Part shown: positions 2,265 through 10,988 of the stretch, in pieces
How the letters are laid out: each line of letters opens with the position of its first letter
How positions within the stretch are numbered: the first letter of the stretch is position 1
Virus genome (UHGV): UHGV-1375844
Length of the DNA: 64,000 nucleotides
From: a virus
Direction: 5' to 3' (one strand)
Notes under the pieces: model-generated
What the model was told of the DNA's origin: nothing
Database searches by the model: none
Seen by the model: the letters and a program-made list of their open reading frames with translations, nothing else
Program-made: the position numbers and the translations under genes

Positions 2265-2339
2265 TGTGAAATGTATCACTGTACGAACAGGCCGCTAAAC
2301 TGTTCGTACAGGTCAACTTAGGGGATCAGGGAAGGACGT

Positions 2340-2561
2340 TTAGTTCGTTCTGACTGCTAAGGAGCCGCAGCCGGTATTGATGAGTGTGAAGCGCTTATCA
2401 CAAAGTTCGAAGGTAAAGGCGGTGGCGTCACCCATATCGAGGGAAATCTGTTTTGCTGGAAGGTCGGCTAGGATTGCCGCCACCTTTTCCTCGTGCAAAG
2501 AGAAAATATGGCCAACTTCAAGTTTGTTCAAATTACAGGCTATTTTTTCCATTTCATTCAT
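2340..2561 (-). CDS. Hypothetical small protein (73 aa)
   Basis: ORF track; divergent from the HTH gene across an AT-rich intergenic region (2562-2814); followed by a 10-bp-stem hairpin at 2281-2313. Confidence 0.35.
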   Translation of the reverse strand: MNEMEKIACNLNKLEVGHIFSLHEEKVAAILADLPAKQISLDMGDATAFTFELCDKRFTLINTGCGSLAVRTN

Positions 2562-2814
2562 CCAACTACAACGGTTTCTAAACGTTTCTGAATACTACTA
2601 CCTATTGTATCAATAAGGAATATTTTCATATCAGATGTTTCTGCTTGCGTGACAATGAAAATGCAAATCATTATTCGCTTAAGTCTTGCCCTGTCTGGGA
2701 TTTAAGAGCATAATGTGCCGCCAACAAATGATAGATAAGTCTTTACAACCCTGACCTTTGATGTAATATCAGTAAGCACTTACCAGAGACAAATAAAACA
2801 CGCAGGGTTTAATC

Positions 2815-3195
2815 ATGGCTACCAATGAAACAAAACAAGGTCGCTACGCCGCCTATATCGACTCTCTCATCACCATTTCTCCAAAAAGTCAGGCCACTAT
2901 TGCTAAGGAAATTGGGTACAAAAACCCCAATAATCTATCGCTTATCAAAAGTGGCAAAATTCCTCTGCCGGTGGACAAGGTTCGCCCGTTGGCCAACTCT
3001 TTGGATGCTGATCCAGTACGTCTCATGCTCATGGTTCTCGAAGAGCGTCACCCTGAGCTTCTTGAGTTCTTCCGTGATGAAGGCACAGCTCCGCTTTCCC
3101 AAGACGAAAAACAGGTATTGGATGCTTTTCGTAAGCGTTTCGATGGTCAACAAGGTGCTTCAGAACAGGTCGTCGAGGCCATCAAGTCAATGTGA
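2815..3195 (+). CDS. Putative HTH transcriptional regulator (candidate lysogeny-switch protein)
   Basis: N-terminal segment SQATIAKEIGYKNPNNLSLIKSGK resembles an XRE-type helix-turn-helix; divergent promoter region with 2340..2561; convergent with and adjacent to the integrase; variant of the intergenic palindrome (agtaagcacttac, 2771-2783) upstream. Confidence 0.5.
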   Translation: MATNETKQGRYAAYIDSLITISPKSQATIAKEIGYKNPNNLSLIKSGKIPLPVDKVRPLANSLDADPVRLMLMVLEERHPELLEFFRDEGTAPLSQDEKQVLDAFRKRFDGQQGASEQVVEAIKSM

Positions 3196-4293
3196 GAAAT
3201 TTATACGAATAAGCTCTGTCGCTAGACGATCTCCCTTGAAATTATGGTCTATCTCGTCTAAATCTGGTTGTTCTACGATGGATGCGATGTACGCCGAAAA
3301 TTTACATAAGGCGTCTCGCATTTCATCCATATAGTCGTGACGGTCGTAAACCCGATCTATACCTTCAAGGCTATGGTTCATGATTTTACGAGAGACTTCC
3401 TGATTAATACCCAGGGCAGGGAAATAGCTACGCGCAGTTCTTCGCAGATCGCGTGGGGTGAAAACCTCAACCTCCATCAACTCCGGACGTTCCAAAATCC
3501 TCCGGAGCGCCTGTGATATGGCTACTTTAGACATTGGCATGTCCTTATCGCGTTTCTTGTTTGAGGGCACCAGCCACTGGCTGTCTTTCCCATATTTAAA
3601 CAGTTCCTCGACGCACTTCCTCATCAGCGGGCTTAACGGTAGAGCATGTTGCCTGGCCGATTTATTACGTGTGCCTTGATTCCATACATCACGTTGAAGG
3701 TTGAACTCACTCTTCTTGGCCCGGAGCACTTCATCGGGTCGCCTGGCAGCCACGAGACATAATCTGGCCGCCCACTTTGTCCCTTCGCATACGTTGAAAT
3801 AATCCCAGACGTTCCAAAAAACCCAAACTTCGGCGTCCGTTAGCTTCCGTTCCCGGGGCGTAGGTTTGGCGCCACCAGCGACTTTGTTGAGCGACATATC
3901 GTTCAACGGCGACGTTTCGATGACCCCCTGGAAGGCGCACCAGCCCAAAAACTGCTTCATCAGGGAAAACACACGCCTGCCCATGACGATCTTCCCTTCC
4001 AGAATGAGCGGGTTCACCAGCTGGTTGACGAGAACCCTACTAATGTCACTTACTTTTACATCAGAGATAAAAGGTAAAACATGTATCAAAACACAATGGA
4101 CGGCGATCTCCGGTCGGCGTCTTGTTATGAGTAAAGATAAGCGAGTGAATAACAAGAAGGCATCTGAAAACTTCATGTCGCCACTTACCAGAGAGGCTGC
4201 CATCGCATTCATTTGCGAAGCCCGTTCCAGAAACTCAATCGCTTCTCGTGAGGTGTTTTCGGCTGCGCGTGCTCGATCAAACGAATTTTTCAT
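3187..4293 (-). CDS. int: Tyrosine recombinase / phage integrase (P4-like)
   Basis: C-terminal FTPRDLRRTARSY ... NHSLEGIDRVYDRHDY matches the box II / catalytic Tyr region of tyrosine integrases, but with Arg where the first box II His is usual; 368 aa. Confidence 0.75.
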   Translation of the reverse strand: MKNSFDRARAAENTSREAIEFLERASQMNAMAASLVSGDMKFSDAFLLFTRLSLLITRRRPEIAVHCVLIHVLPFISDVKVSDISRVLVNQLVNPLILEGKIVMGRRVFSLMKQFLGWCAFQGVIETSPLNDMSLNKVAGGAKPTPRERKLTDAEVWVFWNVWDYFNVCEGTKWAARLCLVAARRPDEVLRAKKSEFNLQRDVWNQGTRNKSARQHALPLSPLMRKCVEELFKYGKDSQWLVPSNKKRDKDMPMSKVAISQALRRILERPELMEVEVFTPRDLRRTARSYFPALGINQEVSRKIMNHSLEGIDRVYDRHDYMDEMRDALCKFSAYIASIVEQPDLDEIDHNFKGDRLATELIRINFSH

Positions 4294-4559
4294 AGTCCAA
4301 TCACTTAGTTAGCCGTAACACTGTATGTATAAACAGTATATTAGGCATTGTTTCTTATGGGATCAAGCCTAACGTTACAGTGATTTTACCAATGATTCCA
4401 TACTTAATAGGTATGGAATCATTAGAGGGCATTTTTTTGAATTTTTACCAGTATTTGGGGGGAGAGATTATGGAAACAGTGACCAGTTGCAGAAACGATT
4501 AAAAAAGAGTGGCTAAGCGCGGTAAGCCCAAACCGAATGAAGAGTTACCGCGCGAAATT

Positions 4560-5183
4560 TTAAAAATCTTCCGCTTGTTCGTACCAGTCGCGTTCGGTAT
4601 CCGATTCTATGCGAGTAATTTCAAAATCCTCATCAATAAAATTCCACTTTTCATCACGCCATGACAAACGAACTTTGGCCTCTACATCAAACTCTGTACC
4701 GGAATAAACATGGTCAGGCAGCTGATCGCCCAAATAGTTGAATGCCACCTGCATGTCAAGAATACCCTTTGTTTCATCGTAAGCAGTATCGAGTACCGTT
4801 AGATCATCAATGACGAAACCTTCGGCGTTCGTGGTTGCGATATCTGCTGCTAACTCGTCATCCACGGCCATTTCAAGAGAGAGAAAGGGGCCATTATGAT
4901 AGATAGCTTCTTCGAAATTATTGTCACCAAAAGCGGCCATTAACAAACGAGACTCAAGCGGCGTTTCTTTGGAAACCTTAGTAAGCTCATGATAATTAGA
5001 GAAGTTCGAGTTTTTGGCGATGATCTCTAATGCCTGAGAATGCGTGAGAGAAACATCTGAGCGAGCCAGTTTTTTGGCTTTGGTTTTGATGAGTTCAAGA
5101 CAAGAATATTGTGACATGGCCGTTCTCCAAATTTCTGACGCTTTTGGAAACCGATAGCCTGCTAACCGGACTCCGCGCGTCAC
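4560..5183 (-). CDS. Hypothetical acidic protein (likely start at internal Met, MSQYSCLELIKTK)
   Basis: ORF track; no recognisable motif. Confidence 0.45.
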   Translation of the reverse strand: MTRGVRLAGYRFPKASEIWRTAMSQYSCLELIKTKAKKLARSDVSLTHSQALEIIAKNSNFSNYHELTKVSKETPLESRLLMAAFGDNNFEEAIYHNGPFLSLEMAVDDELAADIATTNAEGFVIDDLTVLDTAYDETKGILDMQVAFNYLGDQLPDHVYSGTEFDVEAKVRLSWRDEKWNFIDEDFEITRIESDTERDWYEQAEDF

Positions 5184-5385
5184 AAATGTGGGCGAGCCAA
5201 GTATTTTAAGGGTAAATCATGATGGGCTATTGCTTCGCGAGACAGGCGCCAGGTGACCATCACCACCTGGCGTCATAATGGCAAATTCATCTAATTAAGT
5301 CAAACTGAGCATCTCTGGTGCGGGTTGATCCAAAAAGATTGCCGTATAAATTACTATTACTGAACGTGGCTAATGTGGGCCTTTT

Positions 5386-5634
5386 TCATAGCGTACTCAC
5401 CAGTGCCGCAAATTCTGTATAACCCCCGATAGGCTCACCATTTACGAACACCTGCGGTATGGTTTCCACCGGCTTGCCAACCAGGTCGCTCAACTTCTCT
5501 TTGTCGATCCCGGCCGCCATGATGTCAATGTATTCGTAATCACCAAAGCCGTGGCCCTGCAGCTGCTTCGCCAGCTCGACCGCACGTTTGCAGTATGAGC
5601 AATTATCGCGTCCGTAGATAACGACCTTCATCAC
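5386..5634 (-). CDS. Glutaredoxin (NrdH/Grx-like)
   Basis: 82 aa; VVIYGRDNCSYCKRA CxxC active site and TIPQVFVNGEPIGGYTEF glutaredoxin signature. Confidence 0.8.
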   Translation of the reverse strand: MMKVVIYGRDNCSYCKRAVELAKQLQGHGFGDYEYIDIMAAGIDKEKLSDLVGKPVETIPQVFVNGEPIGGYTEFAALVSTL

Positions 5635-6011: not shown

Positions 6012-6242
6012 TTAAAAACGAGCAATCCGGGTACGAAGAATCAGCTCATAGGCTTTCATCGCGTCCAGCTGCTTAATGAGCATGTTGCGGTCGACATCAG
6101 GGAGACGACTAAAAATCTCGGTGGCTGTGAAGCACTCCAGCTTGAAAATACGGCGCGACAGATCTTCCTGTTCCTCTATCACGCGCTGCTGGTGAGGCAG
6201 ATATTCTTTGGTCACGCTTATCTCCTTATTGGTAGGCTTCAA
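6012..6242 (-). CDS. Hypothetical small protein (76 aa)
   Basis: ORF track; overlaps the end of the PhoH gene by 17 nt. Confidence 0.4.
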   Translation of the reverse strand: MKPTNKEISVTKEYLPHQQRVIEEQEDLSRRIFKLECFTATEIFSRLPDVDRNMLIKQLDAMKAYELILRTRIARF

Positions 6243-6999
6243 GCGCTATTTTGCATAACTCAGACCGTACACAGTCCTCGCTCTCAAACTCAATCCGACC
6301 AACATATTCAGACGGCTTAAAGCGCTCCATAGCGTCTTCCAGCCCGGATTTGACGCTGCCAGGAAGATCGCATTGGGTGATGTCCCCGTTAACGATAACC
6401 GTGACGTTTTCTCCCATACGGGTCAGGAACATTTTCATTTGTGACGCTGTCACGTTTTGAGCTTCATCCAGAATCACCACAGCGTTTTCGAAAGTGCGCC
6501 CACGCATGTAAGCGAAGGGGGCAATCTCCACTTTGGCCACCTCTGGCTTTAAGTAGTATTCGAGAAACGAGCCACCCAGACGCTTCTGTAGCACGTCATA
6601 GACTGGCCGGAAGAACGGAGCGAACTTCTCGCTCATGTCGCCCGGAAGAAAGCCCAGATCTTCGTCTGCTTGCAATACCGGCCGAGTCACGATGATCTTG
6701 TCTACTTCCTTATTAAGTAGACGCTGCGCTGCAACGGCCGCGGCCAGGTACGTTTTACCGCAGCCAGCTTCGCCAGTGGCGAACGTTAGCGTTTTGGTAT
6801 CGAGGGAGATGAGATAGTGGGCCTGGGCCTCGTTTCGCGCTTCGAGAGGAGAGTTGTCGCGCTTCGGTTTCGGAGGCAGAGCAGGGGCGGCAGCCAGTTC
6901 GTCAACAATGATTGTGTCAATTTCATAGCCACGAATACGTGATTTTGACTTCAGCGCCTGGCGAGCTGCGCGACGCGCCTGTTTACGTTTGTTTCCCAT
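6226..6999 (-). CDS. phoH: PhoH-like ATPase
   Basis: Walker A GEAGCGKTYLAAAVAA and downstream PhoH-like motifs; start re-placed at the internal ATG at 6999 (MGNKRKQARR) which has AGGA 6 nt upstream. Confidence 0.85.
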   Translation of the reverse strand: MGNKRKQARRAARQALKSKSRIRGYEIDTIIVDELAAAPALPPKPKRDNSPLEARNEAQAHYLISLDTKTLTFATGEAGCGKTYLAAAVAAQRLLNKEVDKIIVTRPVLQADEDLGFLPGDMSEKFAPFFRPVYDVLQKRLGGSFLEYYLKPEVAKVEIAPFAYMRGRTFENAVVILDEAQNVTASQMKMFLTRMGENVTVIVNGDITQCDLPGSVKSGLEDAMERFKPSEYVGRIEFESEDCVRSELCKIALEAYQ

Positions 7000-9275: not shown

Positions 9276-9362
9276 TGGCGGAAGGTAATGGAATCGAACC
9301 ATCACCGCGCTCGCAGTGGGACGGTTTTCAAGACCGCTTGAGCACCATGCTCCCTACCTTCC
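9276..9362 (-). tRNA. tRNA-Ser: tRNA-Ser (anticodon UGA), class II with long variable arm
   Basis: Reverse complement gives GGAAGGT...GGTCTTGAAAACCG...GGTTCGATTCC...ACCTTCCGCCA; 7-bp acceptor stem, encoded CCA, anticodon loop CTTGAAA. Confidence 0.7.
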
Positions 9363-9604
9363 GTTATTTAGTGTGGTGGCCGGCGCTGATCTCCGGCATA
9401 ACAACCCGACTTAAATTCGCGACTTTAAATCGGTTCCTCCGTTTGTCCACTTTAGCCCGGAGTTAGCAACCTCAGTCACTCACCGATATGCCTATCGGTG
9501 GCGCGCATCAGCCTGCGCATTCACCACAACGGTGAGAGCACTCTTGGCGAACCTGTAGATTGGGCTATGATCCCGTTACAAGCGAATGCTCTTACCTGTT
9601 GTGT

Positions 9605-9737
9605 TGGTGCCGGTTAACGGACTCGAACCGTTGACCTCTGGCCTAACATCGGATCGTTGTCATTGACCAGCCATGCTGTCTACCGAAGTAGAAACGATGC
9701 TTTGGCTCTCGCGCTCTACCAACTGAGCTAAACCGGC
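9605..9737 (-). tRNA. tRNA-like element with a ~58-nt internal insertion (disrupted or intron-bearing tRNA)
   Basis: Reverse complement starts GCCGGTTTAGCTCAGTTGGTAGAGC (acceptor + D arm) and ends AACGGTTCGAGTCCGTTAACCGGCACCA (T arm + acceptor + CCA), but 79 nt separate the D arm from the T arm; the insert contains a UUCG-tetraloop hairpin (tctac-ttcg-gtaga). Confidence 0.35.
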
Positions 9738-9739
9738 AT

Positions 9740-9814
9740 TGGCGATGATGGGTGGATTCGAACCACCGACCAGTTGATTAACAGTCAACCGCTCTACCAC
9801 TGAGCTACACCATC
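9740..9814 (-). tRNA. tRNA-Asn: tRNA-Asn (anticodon GUU)
   Basis: Reverse complement GATGGTGTAGCTCAGTGGTAGAGCGGTTGACTGTTAATCAACTGGTCGGTGGTTCGAATCCACCCATCATCGCCA folds as a canonical cloverleaf; anticodon loop CTGTTAA. Confidence 0.8.
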
Positions 9815-9829
9815 AATTTCGCAGCGGTA

Positions 9830-10530
9830 CTGGCTTCAAAGATGAAGTTTTCCCGCAACTTGCACTTTGCGTTAGTGCCAGACGAGGCTTGCGGCTCGCT
9901 CAAATAGAGCGAAGATCTTAAACACTGCTCGGTGCTTCAGAGAGCGCCGGGGAGTCAGATCTTATTGGATGTATGGAATCATCCGTGTTGTGGCAGCTAC
10001 ATGCTAAAACCAGAGGGTATTACTATTGCCACAACGTTGAGGCCACTAAACCAGTAATGTTTGCCCAACATCTTTGTCAGTCGCTACAGCCTCTGTGGAT
10101 TCACCTGTATGATTGAAAGAAACAGTGGCCTCAACGTTGTGTGCTGGCTAACCAGGCCAGCCGGGTTACGTCGCCGATCTTCTTTAACCCAAGACAAAAC
10201 GACATAAGTAATGGAAATGACGTAACAGGATGAACGGTCGATAACTGAAACCGGGATAGGTGAATGGAATGAGGAAACCAACCGCCCATCCTGTTACTTC
10301 ATCGGAGAGGGCATGGGTGGTGCCGTATCATGCCCTCTCCTGCGTTCTGCAATCACACTCGCTCAGTGTGTCCCATTTCGGTGACGAGGCTGGAAACTGA
10401 CCTCGCTGGTGTTTGGCTTATTATGCTACTGCCAGATACTGATTGTCGTTTGCAGTTATCTTTAAACGTTCAAACAGTCGCGTACTAACGAAAACAAAGC
10501 AATCTTATACATATCATAAAAATAAGTAAA
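9830..10530. other. ORF-poor, highly structured non-coding region (candidate ncRNA or origin)
   Basis: Perfect 17-bp inverted repeat acaacgttgaggccact (10031-10047) / agtggcctcaacgttgt (10124-10140); perfect 12-bp-stem hairpin ggagagggcatg (10304-10315) / catgccctctcc (10329-10340); 11-bp inverted repeat gtaacaggatg / catcctgttac; no convincing ORF. Confidence 0.4.
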
Positions 10531-10537
10531 TACTTAT
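10521..10537. repeat. Intergenic palindrome family, copy
   Basis: aataagtaaatacttat. Confidence 0.5.
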
Positions 10538-10839
10538 CTATCGGTTATGCGTTCAGTTGATAACTTTTTGATCAGAGTCCCCTTCGAAGAGGGGGTTCGT
10601 GAGACAGTGGCGGTAAATCGCTTACCGTGGATAGTAATACTCTCGTGCTCCTTCAGTTCCCCATAGCGGATTTCCAATAGGGCGCCAAGACGCCATAGTC
10701 CATCATCGATACGCTTTTTACTGGCAAACTTTATCAGCAACCATTTCACAATAAATTGGCCTGCAGCGAATGCGCACGCAACGCCAGCTGCCGTAAAGTA
10801 GGCGACCAGCCACCAGTCGAGTGAGGTCAGTTCCGTCAT
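10534..10839 (-). CDS. Hypothetical membrane protein (101 aa)
   Basis: N-terminal hydrophobic helix (WWLVAYFTAAGVACAFAAGQFIV); start overlaps the stop of the upstream small ORF (ATGA). Confidence 0.5.
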   Translation of the reverse strand: MTELTSLDWWLVAYFTAAGVACAFAAGQFIVKWLLIKFASKKRIDDGLWRLGALLEIRYGELKEHESITIHGKRFTATVSRTPSSKGTLIKKLSTERITDR

Positions 10840-10988
10840 TTTGGCGCCCCTGTTTCATGAACTACACGATATACACGCTTGCCTATGCGCATAGATTTTG
10901 TTTTAAGCTGCTGCTTAACCAGATGTCGATGTGCGATGAAGCCGAGGCTCGCGCCAACAATCAAAGCTAATGTGATGTATGGAATCAT
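10836..10988 (-). CDS. Small membrane protein (50 aa), not in ORF track
   Basis: Own translation: MIPYITLALIVGASLGFIAHRHLVKQQLKTKSMRIGKRVYRVVHETGAPK; start/stop overlaps (ATGA) with both neighbours indicate translational coupling. Confidence 0.4.
   Translation of the reverse strand: MIPYITLALIVGASLGFIAHRHLVKQQLKTKSMRIGKRVYRVVHETGAPK

What the first reader, a model, noticed from the sequence alone, without database searches (positions are those of the whole stretch)
2281..4440. Integrase with atypical box II, divergent switch-like region and an adjacent 12-bp-stem palindrome
The integrase C-terminus reads TPRDLRRT where P4-type integrases usually have a His before the D-L-R (recall, not verified), raising the possibility of an altered or weakened catalytic site. 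Upstream of the int start lies a perfect palindrome aatgattccata-(c)ttaataggt-tatggaatcatt (4391-4430) followed by a T-run, a candidate attP arm, operator or terminator. The HTH gene and the 73-aa gene form a divergent pair across an AT-rich region, resembling a cI/cro-type switch. Unusually, the integrase is ~5 kb from the tRNA cluster rather than next to it.
Basis: partly seen in the sequence, partly recalled or inferred. Interest (0 to 1): 0.45.

Follow-up and report, generated by a model that had tools for sequence, protein, structure and literature searches.

The report
Lox-like recombinase module of a phage-plasmid
The "integrase" belongs to a plasmid-living phage that is never found inserted in a chromosome, and together with the palindrome just upstream of it looks like a self-contained Cre/loxP-style recombination module (probably for keeping plasmid copies as monomers) with an unusual but fixed Arg-for-His change in its active site.

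Summary
The sequence observations are real. Int (3187-4293, minus strand) reads TPRDLRRT. Arg281 aligns with lambda Int His308. A perfect 13-7-13 palindrome lies at 4391-4423.

The interpretation changes. The window is an SSU5-like phage-plasmid. Homologous loci sit on plasmids in 252 complete E. coli genomes and never on a chromosome. The Arg is fixed in all 106 family clusters. The P4-type relatives have His. The other catalytic residues are conserved, and the P4-type arm-binding domain is absent.

The palindrome arms are invariant in close relatives, while the 7-bp spacer varies. In distant lineages both arms change together. The palindrome stays next to int even on Pantoea, Rahnella and Erwinia plasmids that share no other gene. 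Homology between relatives breaks at its edges.

Best reading: a Cre/loxP-like recombinase-plus-site module for multimer resolution, perhaps also genome cyclisation, expressed from a promoter carrying a LexA box (4319-4338). No activity was tested.

It is not a canonical terminator, and there is no evidence for an attP role. The tRNAs are phage cargo. The cI/cro idea is only half supported.

Unexplained: invariant isolated half-sites at 9968-9982 and 10974-10988.

The parts
3187..4293 (-). int: 368-aa tyrosine recombinase. Its catalytic set is R185, K211, R281 (in place of His-II), R284, H307 and Y316. It has no arm-binding domain.
   Evidence: Pfam PF00589 scores 39.4 bits against a cutoff of 27.1. 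A profile-to-lambda-Int alignment places r281 on H308, R185 on R212, K211 on K235 and H307 on H333. The AF2 model has pLDDT 86 with an all-helical N-terminus. Foldseek finds lambda Int, Tn1549 Int, Xer, IntI and Cre.
4391..4423 (.). Core recombination site (inferred). It has 13-bp perfect inverted arms (4391-4403 and 4411-4423) flanking a 7-bp asymmetric spacer (4404-4410). On the + strand the spacer reads TTAATAG; read towards int it is CTATTAA.
   Evidence: The arms are invariant in 9 relatives found by protein similarity, while the spacer varies. Both arms co-vary with the Int lineage. Homology breakpoints fall at its edges.
4432..4445 (.). Far-side accessory A/T element. On the int-sense strand it reads A(G/A)A(T/A)TT(C/T)AAAAAA and lies 11-23 nt beyond the arm.
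   Evidence: It carries about 1 bit per position across 35 otherwise unrelated far flanks, and there is no information beyond -26. A similar G-rich-linker-plus-T-run is present in distant lineages. Its function is unknown.
4319..4338 (-). LexA-box-like operator TACTGTTTATACATACAGTG. It lies between the putative -10 and the int start codon.
   Evidence: It is the only CTGT-N8-ACAG in the 64-kb window. 97 of 113 related loci keep CTGT-N8-ACAG at the same distance, with 20 different inner sequences. It matches 17 of 20 positions of the consensus TACTGTATATATATACAGTA (the consensus itself is recalled from knowledge). LexA binding was not tested.
4338..4366 (-). Putative int promoter: -35 TTGATC (4366-4361), a 17-nt spacer, and -10 TAATAT (4343-4338).
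   Evidence: It was read from the sequence. The block TTGAT...ATGCCTAATATACTG is invariant in 9 relatives. It falls below the scan threshold (8 of 12 matches) and was not called, so it is inferred.
4446..5368 (.). Variable cargo slot between the site and the glutaredoxin gene. Here it holds ORF 4560-5183 (minus strand, 207 aa, phrog_28020, function unknown).
   Evidence: There are 35 different far-flank types against 16 near-flank types. In many E. coli relatives the slot is 'empty', with the site about 85 bp from the grx stop. Homology resumes at 5369-5406. No second site was found at the other boundary.
2815..3195 (+). 126-aa XRE/HTH-like regulator. It is convergent with int and overlaps it by 9 nt. 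It is a neighbour, not part of the int-site module.
   Evidence: It matches phrog_8 (transcriptional regulator) at 6.7e-10. RefSeq calls some orthologues 'XRE family'. The Cyrano orthologue CYRAN_45 is a putative repressor expressed in lysogeny. It is absent next to int on the Pantoea, Rahnella and Erwinia loci.
2340..2561 (-). 73-aa protein of unknown function (phrog_2627). It is the first gene of the leftward CobT/CobS/PolIII-alpha gene string and is divergent from the HTH gene.
   Evidence: The AF2 model has pLDDT 73 with an alpha-beta-alpha-beta-beta-beta topology, and there is no significant PDB match.
9968..9982 (+). Isolated half-site GATGTATGGAATCAT, identical to one palindrome arm. 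It is intergenic, next to the tRNA cluster.
   Evidence: The 12-mer matches exactly. The 15-mer is invariant in 17 of 17 orthologous loci whose flanks are about 79% identical.
10974..10988 (+). Isolated half-site GATGTATGGAATCAT. It overlaps the start codon of the 50-aa ORF at 10836-10988 (minus strand).
   Evidence: The 12-mer matches exactly. The 15-mer is invariant in 25 of 25 orthologous loci whose flanks are about 75% identical. A third copy lies in the PolIII-alpha gene just outside the window.

Best explanation
The window is part of an SSU5-like phage-plasmid, a temperate siphovirus kept as a low-copy plasmid.

Int and the 33-bp palindrome 98 bp upstream of its start codon form a simple two-part site-specific recombination module of the Cre/loxP type. 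Two Int monomers bind the two 13-bp arms. Cleavage and strand exchange take place across the 7-bp asymmetric spacer, which gives the site its polarity. Recombination between directly repeated copies converts plasmid multimers back to monomers. Copies in a terminally redundant infecting genome could be recombined the same way, which would cyclise it.

Because only spacer identity between partner sites matters, the arms stay fixed while spacers drift. Co-resident relatives with the same spacer can exchange flanking DNA at the site.

In this lineage int is transcribed from a promoter overlapped by a LexA box, so it is probably SOS-inducible.

Shown: the anatomy, the conservation and co-variation of the site with Int, the exclusive plasmid location, and the breakpoints at the site.

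Inferred: Int binding, catalysis with Arg281, the resolution role, and LexA control.
For: 1. Plasmid lifestyle.
- The closest relatives (81-87% aa identity) are 108-120-kb SSU5-like phage-plasmids.
- In 5,426 complete E. coli genomes, 254 homologous places are all on plasmids and none is on a chromosome.
- 927 PLSDB plasmids carry a family member.
- No contig longer than 1 Mb carries the exact protein.
- Cyrano is a 5.5-copy plasmid, and its only annotated site-specific recombinase is this Int.

2. Simple recombinase.
- No PF13356 arm-binding domain occurs in any of about 110 family clusters, although the nearest outgroup has it.
- The N-terminal 55 residues have no counterpart in the outgroup and are predicted helical.
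- The CB and catalytic domains match lambda Int, Xer and Cre structures.

3. Active site kept. R185, K211, R284 and Y316 are invariant, H307 is nearly invariant, and R281 is fixed in 106 of 106 clusters.

4. Lox-like site. It has 13-7-13 architecture.
- The arms are invariant and the spacer varies in 9 relatives retrieved by protein similarity.
- 113 sites carry 12 different spacers.

5. Co-variation with Int.
- The arms are ATGATTCCATAC, GTGATTCCATAC, ATGACTCCAGAC or GTGACTCCAGAC in different Int lineages.
- Both arms always change together, and the site always lies 45-100 bp upstream of int.
- This holds on the Pantoea, Rahnella and Erwinia loci, where no other neighbouring gene is shared.

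6. Crossovers map to the site.
- Homology among relatives ends at window position 4423.
- L054 and L112 are 99.8% identical on the far side and 83% on the int side, and the switch lies at the int-side edge of the palindrome.

7. LexA box.
Against: - No experiment or read-level evidence of recombination was available. Binding, cleavage and resolution are all inferred.
- An SOS-repressed promoter is not what one expects for a housekeeping resolvase.
- Arg cannot replace His as a general base, so the chemistry may differ or be slow.
- The far-side A/T element and the invariant isolated half-sites are not features of Cre/loxP and are unexplained by this model.
- Host XerCD acting at an unrecognised site could be the real resolution system.
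- Most of the 113 sites were retrieved with a pattern that fixes the arms. Only the 9 close lineages and the 7 distant lineages retrieved by protein (Chimaeribacter came from the pattern scan) are unbiased for arm conservation.
Confidence: 0.58

Rival explanations
1. Int is mainly a sequence-specific DNA-binding regulator. The palindrome is its autoregulatory operator just upstream of its own promoter. The isolated half-sites are further operators, in the manner of the dispersed asymmetric C1 operators of phage P1. Recombination is absent or secondary.
For: - The palindrome ends 24 bp upstream of the putative -35.
- Invariant isolated 15-mers identical to one arm lie at three other places within -3.2 to +6 kb and nowhere else in a 108-kb relative.
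- The canonical His of box II is replaced.
Against: - Tyr316, both Arg and Lys are invariant, and His-III is nearly invariant, over 41-99% identity. That is hard to explain without catalysis.
- The 13-7-13 geometry with a free-varying asymmetric spacer is that of a recombination core, not of a typical operator.
- Homology breakpoints lie at the site.
- The isolated half-sites are absent from lineages with the other arm type, which still keep int plus the palindrome.
Confidence: 0.12
2. Classical temperate-phage integrase. The palindrome is the attP core, and the element can integrate into a host chromosome.
For: - The nearest sequence relatives outside the family are P4-type prophage and island integrases.
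- The LexA-controlled promoter would fit an excision function.
Against: - None of 254 E. coli places is chromosomal.
- No contig longer than 1 Mb carries the protein.
- There is no arm-binding domain, and no arm-type repeats were seen.
- All 7 matches to the site pattern in 185,579 species genomes have int right next to them.
- The phage-plasmid literature reports only rare, probably accidental chromosomal copies (PMC12977533).
Confidence: 0.06
3. Cargo-capture platform analogous to an integron. An SOS-induced Int inserts or exchanges gene modules at the palindrome, creating the variable slot next to it.
For: - The variable slot starts about 25 bp beyond the site, with 35 flank types, and ranges from empty to more than 5 kb.
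- The cargo gene CYRAN_43 is a very highly expressed moron.
- LexA control resembles that of IntI (the IntI comparison is from knowledge).
- Exchange occurs at the site between backbones.
Against: - There is no second full or degenerate site at the distal boundary of the cargo.
- The distal boundary is not sharp and falls in or near the grx gene.
- No free cassette-like units carrying the site were found without int.
- Cointegration at the site followed by homologous resolution explains the shuffling without any capture.
Confidence: 0.07
4. The palindrome is an RNA hairpin acting as a transcription terminator or attenuator between the upstream gene and int.
For: - It folds stably as RNA on both strands: -18.9 and -20.7 kcal/mol, z-scores -4.0 and -5.9.
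- A T-run follows on the + strand, and that T-run is conserved.
Against: - The T-run starts 8 nt after the stem, so the site fails the terminator scan.
- No T-run follows the hairpin on the strand that carries the flanking genes.
- The arms are invariant at the DNA level rather than showing compensatory drift in close relatives, and the loop changes freely.
- The upstream gene orientation differs among relatives.
Confidence: 0.03

Closest known systems
Cre/loxP of phage-plasmid P1
   Same: - The host element is a phage-plasmid.
- The recombinase has no arm-binding domain.
- The site has two 13-bp perfect inverted repeats around a short asymmetric spacer.
- The proposed role is multimer resolution and cyclisation. 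(Cre biology is from PMC7969092 and from knowledge.)
   Different: - There is no sequence relationship. Foldseek to Cre gives E of about 1e-2 and 11-13% identity, and Cre is not among the 19 PDB sequences reported at E <= 0.01 in the profile search.
- The spacer is 7 bp rather than 8 bp.
- The active site has Arg in place of His-II.
- There is a LexA box in the promoter, a conserved A/T element beside the site, and isolated half-sites elsewhere.
P4-type (lambda-family) integrases: PF13356 + PF22022 + PF00589
   Same: They are the nearest sequence relatives (26-37% identity). They share the SAM-like core-binding domain and the catalytic domain, and the motifs ...RRxxE......DLRRT..., NH...VYDRHDY.
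   Different: - The family here lacks the N-terminal arm-binding domain and has an unrelated helical 55-residue N-terminus.
- It has Arg where 142 of 142 outgroup representatives have His.
- It is plasmid-borne only and is not adjacent to a tRNA target.
Plasmid and transposon tyrosine-recombinase resolution systems (F ResD/rfsF, pSDL2 Rsd/crs, Tn4430 TnpI/IRS). Recalled from knowledge, not tested here.
   Same: A recombinase gene sits next to its own inverted-repeat core site on a plasmid. The function is monomerisation.
   Different: No sequence comparison was run. TnpI uses adjacent accessory repeats, whereas the extra half-sites here are kilobases away.
SSV1-type (R...KxxR...Y) and pNOB8-type (R...YxxR...Y) archaeal integrases
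   Same: These are active tyrosine recombinases in which the box II His is replaced by another residue (PMC8371274).
   Different: The replacement there is Lys or Tyr rather than Arg. They are archaeal integrative elements and unrelated lineages.
Integron IntI/attI
   Same: A tyrosine recombinase has a LexA-controlled promoter (from knowledge) and a variable gene region starting at the adjacent site.
   Different: There are no attC-like partner sites, no cassette structure, and no second site at the distal boundary. IntI is only a distant fold match.

Membership tests
Tyrosine recombinase superfamily (PF00589) | Pfam model above the gathering score | tested here: met
   39.4 bits against a cutoff of 27.1, E = 7e-10, residues 173-320.
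Tyrosine recombinase superfamily (PF00589) | Catalytic Arg-I, Lys-beta, Arg-II, His/Trp-III and the Tyr nucleophile | tested here: met
   R185, K211, R284 and Y316 are invariant and H307 is at least 90% conserved in a 31-sequence alignment. They align to lambda R212, K235, R311 and H333.
Tyrosine recombinase superfamily (PF00589) | His-II of the box II HxxR motif | tested here: not met
   It is Arg281. Arg is present in 106 of 106 family clusters that cover the motif. His is present in 142 of 142 outgroup representatives. The position aligns to lambda H308. Active KxxR and YxxR families are known.
P4-type integrase | N-terminal arm-type DNA-binding domain (PF13356) | tested here: not met
   There is no Pfam hit. 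No family cluster carries PF13356, whereas P0112-P0120 do. The N-terminus is predicted helical.
P4-type integrase | Integration into a chromosomal (often tRNA) target, seen as prophage or island junctions | tested here: not met
   None of 254 places is on an E. coli chromosome. No int-less copy of the site was found in representative genomes. The nearby tRNAs are phage genes.
Cre/loxP-type simple recombination module | Site made of two inverted recombinase-binding elements of about 13 bp flanking a 6-8-bp asymmetric spacer | tested here: met
   13-7-13 at 4391-4423. The arms are conserved and the spacer is variable and non-palindromic.
Cre/loxP-type simple recombination module | The site co-evolves with and travels with the recombinase gene | tested here: met
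   There are four arm variants, always symmetric and always upstream of int in 8 lineages, including non-phage plasmids.
Cre/loxP-type simple recombination module | The recombinase catalyses recombination between two sites without accessory proteins | not testable with these tools
   There is only indirect evidence: homology breakpoints at the site.
Cre family (sequence homology to Cre) | Detectable sequence similarity to Cre | tested here: not met
   Cre appears only as a weak fold match (E of about 1e-2, 11-13% identity). It is not among the 19 PDB sequences reported at E <= 0.01 in the profile search.
LexA-regulated (SOS) promoter | CTGT-N8-ACAG box overlapping the promoter or transcription start | tested here: met
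   The box is at 4319-4338, is unique in the window, is conserved in 97 of 113 loci, and matches 17 of 20 consensus positions. LexA binding itself is not testable here.
Intrinsic terminator | G+C-rich stem immediately followed (0-2 nt) by a T-run | tested here: not met
   The scan does not call it. The T-run starts 8 nt after the stem, and the stem is AT-rich.
cI/Cro-type switch | Two divergent DNA-binding (HTH) regulators sharing operators | tested here: inconclusive
   The 126-aa protein matches phage regulator families. An operator-like palindrome at 2772-2783 follows a predicted promoter. The 73-aa protein has no HTH family hit and no fold match.
Integron | attC-type partner sites bounding cassettes | tested here: not met
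   No second site with up to 3 mismatches occurs in the window. There is no motif at the distal cargo boundary.

The most novel reading that the evidence does not exclude
Int is more than a resolvase. It would be an SOS-induced recombinase whose lox-like site is the entry and exchange point for the highly expressed cargo genes of SSU5-like phage-plasmids. The same protein would also read a small set of invariant, polar, isolated half-sites around the replication genes. Together these would make a plasmid-organising and regulatory system with no described counterpart, built on an RKRRHY active site.
Probability: 0.1. Interest if true: 0.7.

Novelty: new variant of a known kind. Interest (0 to 1): 0.45.

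Why it matters
SSU5-like phage-plasmids are common. They occur in 252 of 5,426 complete E. coli genomes, and 927 PLSDB plasmids carry a family member, including Y. pestis pMT1-type plasmids. They also carry resistance and virulence cargo.

Their persistent "integrase" has been annotated without a site or a role. Assigning it a 33-bp lox-like site does three things:
- It gives a testable maintenance function.
- It explains a sharp mosaic boundary and cargo hot spot in these genomes.
- It defines a compact recombinase clade with Arg in place of the box II His, which is useful for asking what that residue does in catalysis.

If the enzyme is active on the minimal site, it is a candidate orthogonal Cre-like tool. 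At least two natural arm specificities and many natural heterospecific spacers are already available.

Tried and rejected
1. Direct phmmer of Int against PDB found nothing. A family profile was needed.
2. Megablast of the region against phage records found nothing. The relatives are only about 75% identical in DNA.
3. The near-half-site inside int (3676-3687, the codons for D-V-W-N-Q) looked like a fourth site. It varies at synonymous positions among lineages, so it is a coding coincidence.
4. I looked for a second or degenerate site at the distal end of the cargo slot. None was found.
5. I asked whether the isolated half-sites mark homology breakpoints. They do not do so consistently.
6. I asked whether the isolated half-sites co-vary in lineages with the other arm type. 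They are simply absent there.
7. Terminator reading: rejected on geometry.
8. 73-aa protein as Cro. Its shallow 4-sequence alignment gave a pLDDT-73 model with no significant PDB match, so this cannot be confirmed.
9. A literature search for the arm sequences returned only unrelated primers.
10. The exact 7-bp spacer inversion between near-isogenic loci (L003 and L058) was considered as evidence of Int action. Recombination between the two 13-bp arms, a 'minute inversion', explains it without Int.
Full report
**Observation**

The ORF at 3187-4293 (minus strand, 368 aa) is a tyrosine recombinase. Pfam PF00589 scores 39.4 bits against a cutoff of 27.1, and PF22022 gives a weak hit. It reads ...EVFTPRDLRRTARS....

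The palindrome is real and slightly better than described. The arm AATGATTCCATAC is at 4391-4403, the 7-nt spacer TTAATAG at 4404-4410, and the arm GTATGGAATCATT at 4411-4423. The T-run is 4432-4438.

Only two perfect inverted repeats with arms of at least 12 nt and loops of at most 10 nt exist in the 64-kb window. Resampling predicts 0.06. The full pattern with up to 3 mismatches is unique.

The HTH-like gene (2815-3195, +) and the 73-aa gene (2340-2561, -) are divergent across a 253-bp region of 36% GC, against 50% for the window. The tRNAs lie at 9276-9814.

**What the element is**

tblastn against phage records gives 81-87% identical proteins in 108-120-kb SSU5-like phage-plasmids: Escherichia phages Cyrano, PhiR41_1 and CMS-2020a, and Klebsiella phages pJN2-26 and vB_Kpn_1825-KPC53. 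Synteny is the same: ligase, tRNAs, PhoH, glutaredoxin, int, HTH, small ORF, CobT, CobS, PolIII-alpha.

A cluster 99% identical to the window's Int is named from Enterobacter hormaechei and sits on contigs of up to about 108 kb.

Cyrano (pLF82) is a 5.5-copy plasmid inducible by ciprofloxacin (PMC9928086). Its annotation lists ParA, ParB, RepA and RuvC, and only this one site-specific recombinase.

In 5,426 complete E. coli genomes, 252 carry the locus at 254 places. All are on plasmids and none is on a chromosome. 927 PLSDB plasmids carry a family member. The exact protein is never on a contig longer than 1 Mb.

The tRNAs are therefore phage cargo, not an integration target.

**The active site**

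In an alignment of 22 family members (41-99% identity) and 9 P4-type integrases, the family has R-D-L-R-R-T where the P4-type proteins have H-D-L/I-R-R-T. A family profile aligned to lambda Int puts this Arg on His308. It also puts R185 on R212, K211 on K235 and H307 on H333.

Arg is present in all 106 family clusters that cover the motif. Of the next 147 best representatives in a 1.84-billion-protein library, one is a 76-aa fragment of the family itself, 4 gave no box II motif, and all 142 outgroup proteins with a motif have His.

R185, K211, R284 and Y316 are invariant, and H307 is nearly so. The change is therefore a fixed trait of a compact clade, not decay. Active recombinase families with Lys or Tyr at this position are known (PMC8371274).

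The family is isolated. Scores drop from 322 to 156 bits between its most distant member and the nearest P4-type protein. Outgroup matches begin at about query residue 55-70.

No member has the PF13356 arm-binding domain. The AF2 model (pLDDT 86) has an all-helical N-terminus. Fold matches are lambda Int, Tn1549 Int, XerA, XerH and IntI, with Cre more distant.

**The palindrome is Int's site**

In the 9 relatives retrieved by protein similarity, the 12-bp arm cores are invariant while the 7-bp spacer differs. DNA farther out on the far side is unalignable.

Pattern scans added about 100 more sites. Oriented by int, 113 sites carry 12 different spacers.

More distant Int lineages, retrieved by protein, have the same architecture 45-100 bp upstream of int, but with arm changes that are always mirrored in both arms:
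- GTGATTCCATAC in Klebsiella michiganensis.
- ATGACTCCAGAC in Providencia.
- GTGACTCCAGAC in Xenorhabdus, Pantoea, Rahnella and Erwinia.

The Pantoea, Rahnella and Erwinia loci are not phage-plasmids. Their neighbouring genes are H-NS, chemoreceptor, TonB-receptor and transporter genes. Family members in Pantoea and Rahnella lie on 0.3-0.5-Mb plasmids.

Int is therefore the only gene that travels with the palindrome. This ties the site to Int rather than to the HTH protein or to a host factor.

**Recombination at the site**

Homology between the window and 93 E. coli plasmids stops at window position 4423, the outer edge of the palindrome. The same holds for every fetched relative.

Conversely, L054 and L112 are 99.8% identical over 400 bp on the far side and 83% identical on the int side. 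The switch lies right at the int-side edge, and the two share the same spacer.

Sixteen int-side flank types combine with 35 far-side flank types.

**Extra features**

- **A/T element.** On the far side, 35 unrelated flanks share only a degenerate A(G/A)A(T/A)TT(C/T)AAAAAA element 11-23 nt from the arm.
- **Promoter and LexA box.** Between the site and int lie an invariant putative promoter (TTGATC, 17 nt, TAATAT; inferred) and a LexA box at 4319-4338. It is the only CTGT-N8-ACAG in the window. 97 of 113 loci keep it, with 20 different inner sequences. In Cyrano the only other good LexA box precedes an S24-peptidase gene. Lineages with a short leader lack the box.
- **Cargo slot.** Beyond the site lies a cargo slot. 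It is empty in many E. coli relatives, where the site is about 85 bp from the glutaredoxin stop. It spans about 946 bp here and holds a 207-aa ORF of unknown function. No second site bounds it. In Cyrano the cargo gene is a very highly expressed moron.

**Interpretation**

The best-supported reading is a Cre/loxP-type module on a phage-plasmid. It would resolve multimers and possibly cyclise infecting genomes. Spacer drift makes different lineages heterospecific, and shared spacers allow exchange of flanks.

The literature already supposes that phage-plasmid recombinases resolve dimers, and lists tyrosine recombinases among the persistent SSU5 genes (PMC7969092). I found no description of this site or of the Arg variant.

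The rivals are less likely for the reasons given in their entries. They are an Int-as-regulator model, chromosomal integration, an integron-like capture platform and a terminator. None of the activities was tested, so my confidence in the functional role is moderate (0.58). My confidence that the palindrome is Int's cognate site is higher.

**The switch-like region**

The 126-aa protein matches phage regulator families. Its Cyrano orthologue is treated as the putative repressor. A predicted promoter (TTTACA, 16 nt, TAATAT, 2742-2769) is followed by a conserved small palindrome at 2772-2783.

The 73-aa protein has no family beyond a PHROG of unknown function and no fold match.

The divergent layout is compatible with a switch. 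It is not shown to be one, and it is not part of the int-site module.

**Unexplained**

The 15-mer GATGTATGGAATCAT, which is one arm plus GAT, occurs alone at 9968-9982 and 10974-10988. A third copy lies in the PolIII-alpha gene just outside the window. In a complete 108-kb relative these are the only other copies.

The 15-mers are invariant in 17 of 17 and 25 of 25 orthologous loci whose flanks are 75-79% identical. The three copies lie in different contexts: one intergenic, one across a start codon and one inside the PolIII-alpha coding sequence. They are absent from lineages with the other arm type.

Noticed in passing
window 9968-9982 and 10974-10988 (third copy at L122 16156-16170, in the PolIII-alpha gene outside the window): These are isolated, invariant 15-mers GATGTATGGAATCAT, identical to one arm of the int palindrome. 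They are the only other copies in a whole 108-kb relative. All lie within a few kb of the palindrome, and each is oriented like the nearer arm. Their function is unknown.
   Followed up: partly
window 2279-2311: A perfect 12-bp-stem hairpin (CTGTACGAACAG, 9 nt, CTGTTCGTACAG) lies between the 73-aa gene and the CobT gene. Relatives keep the stem through compensatory changes. In Xenorhabdus and Providencia the same position holds a canonical terminator with a T-run, but here no T-run follows. It may be an attenuator or a processing site.
   Followed up: partly
window 2742-2783: A predicted sigma-70 promoter for the HTH gene (TTTACA, 16 nt, TAATAT) is followed directly by a small palindrome, GTAAGCACTTAC. 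The palindrome is conserved in E. coli and Klebsiella relatives as GGTAAGTGCTTACC and is a candidate operator. The 13-mer CACTTACCAGAGA (2777-2789) recurs exactly at 4182-4194, inside int.
   Followed up: partly
L003 against L058 (site region); also L013 against window-type sites: Between loci with 99-100% identical flanks, only the 7-bp spacer is exactly inverted (ATAGTAG against CTACTAT). A second flip pair is TTAATAG against CTATTAA. Both spacers have the form xTAxTAx. This is probably a minute inversion by recombination between the two arms. It reverses the polarity of the site.
   Followed up: partly
window 9608-9737 (minus strand): Rfam's tRNA model matches at 46.7 bits over a stretch of 130 nt that ARAGORN does not call. 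Cyrano has a tRNA-Thr at the equivalent place. This may be a tRNA gene with an insertion, or a decayed one.
   Followed up: no
window 6231-6424 (+), antisense to the PhoH gene: There is a full-length match to the Rfam family Ysr251 (a Yersinia antisense sRNA) at 71 bits, below the gathering score of 100. This is consistent with the relationship of this element to Y. pestis pMT1.
   Followed up: no
window 9815-10533: About 720 bp downstream of the tRNA cluster has no convincing ORF and contains one of the isolated half-sites. It may be a regulatory or origin-type region.
   Followed up: no
Cyrano OV696614.1 89277-89298 (L132): The only other strong LexA box in that phage-plasmid (ATACTGTATGTGTATACAGTAT) lies just upstream of a 'LexA-like peptidase S24' gene. 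The element's SOS-controlled set may therefore be int plus this gene.
   Followed up: no
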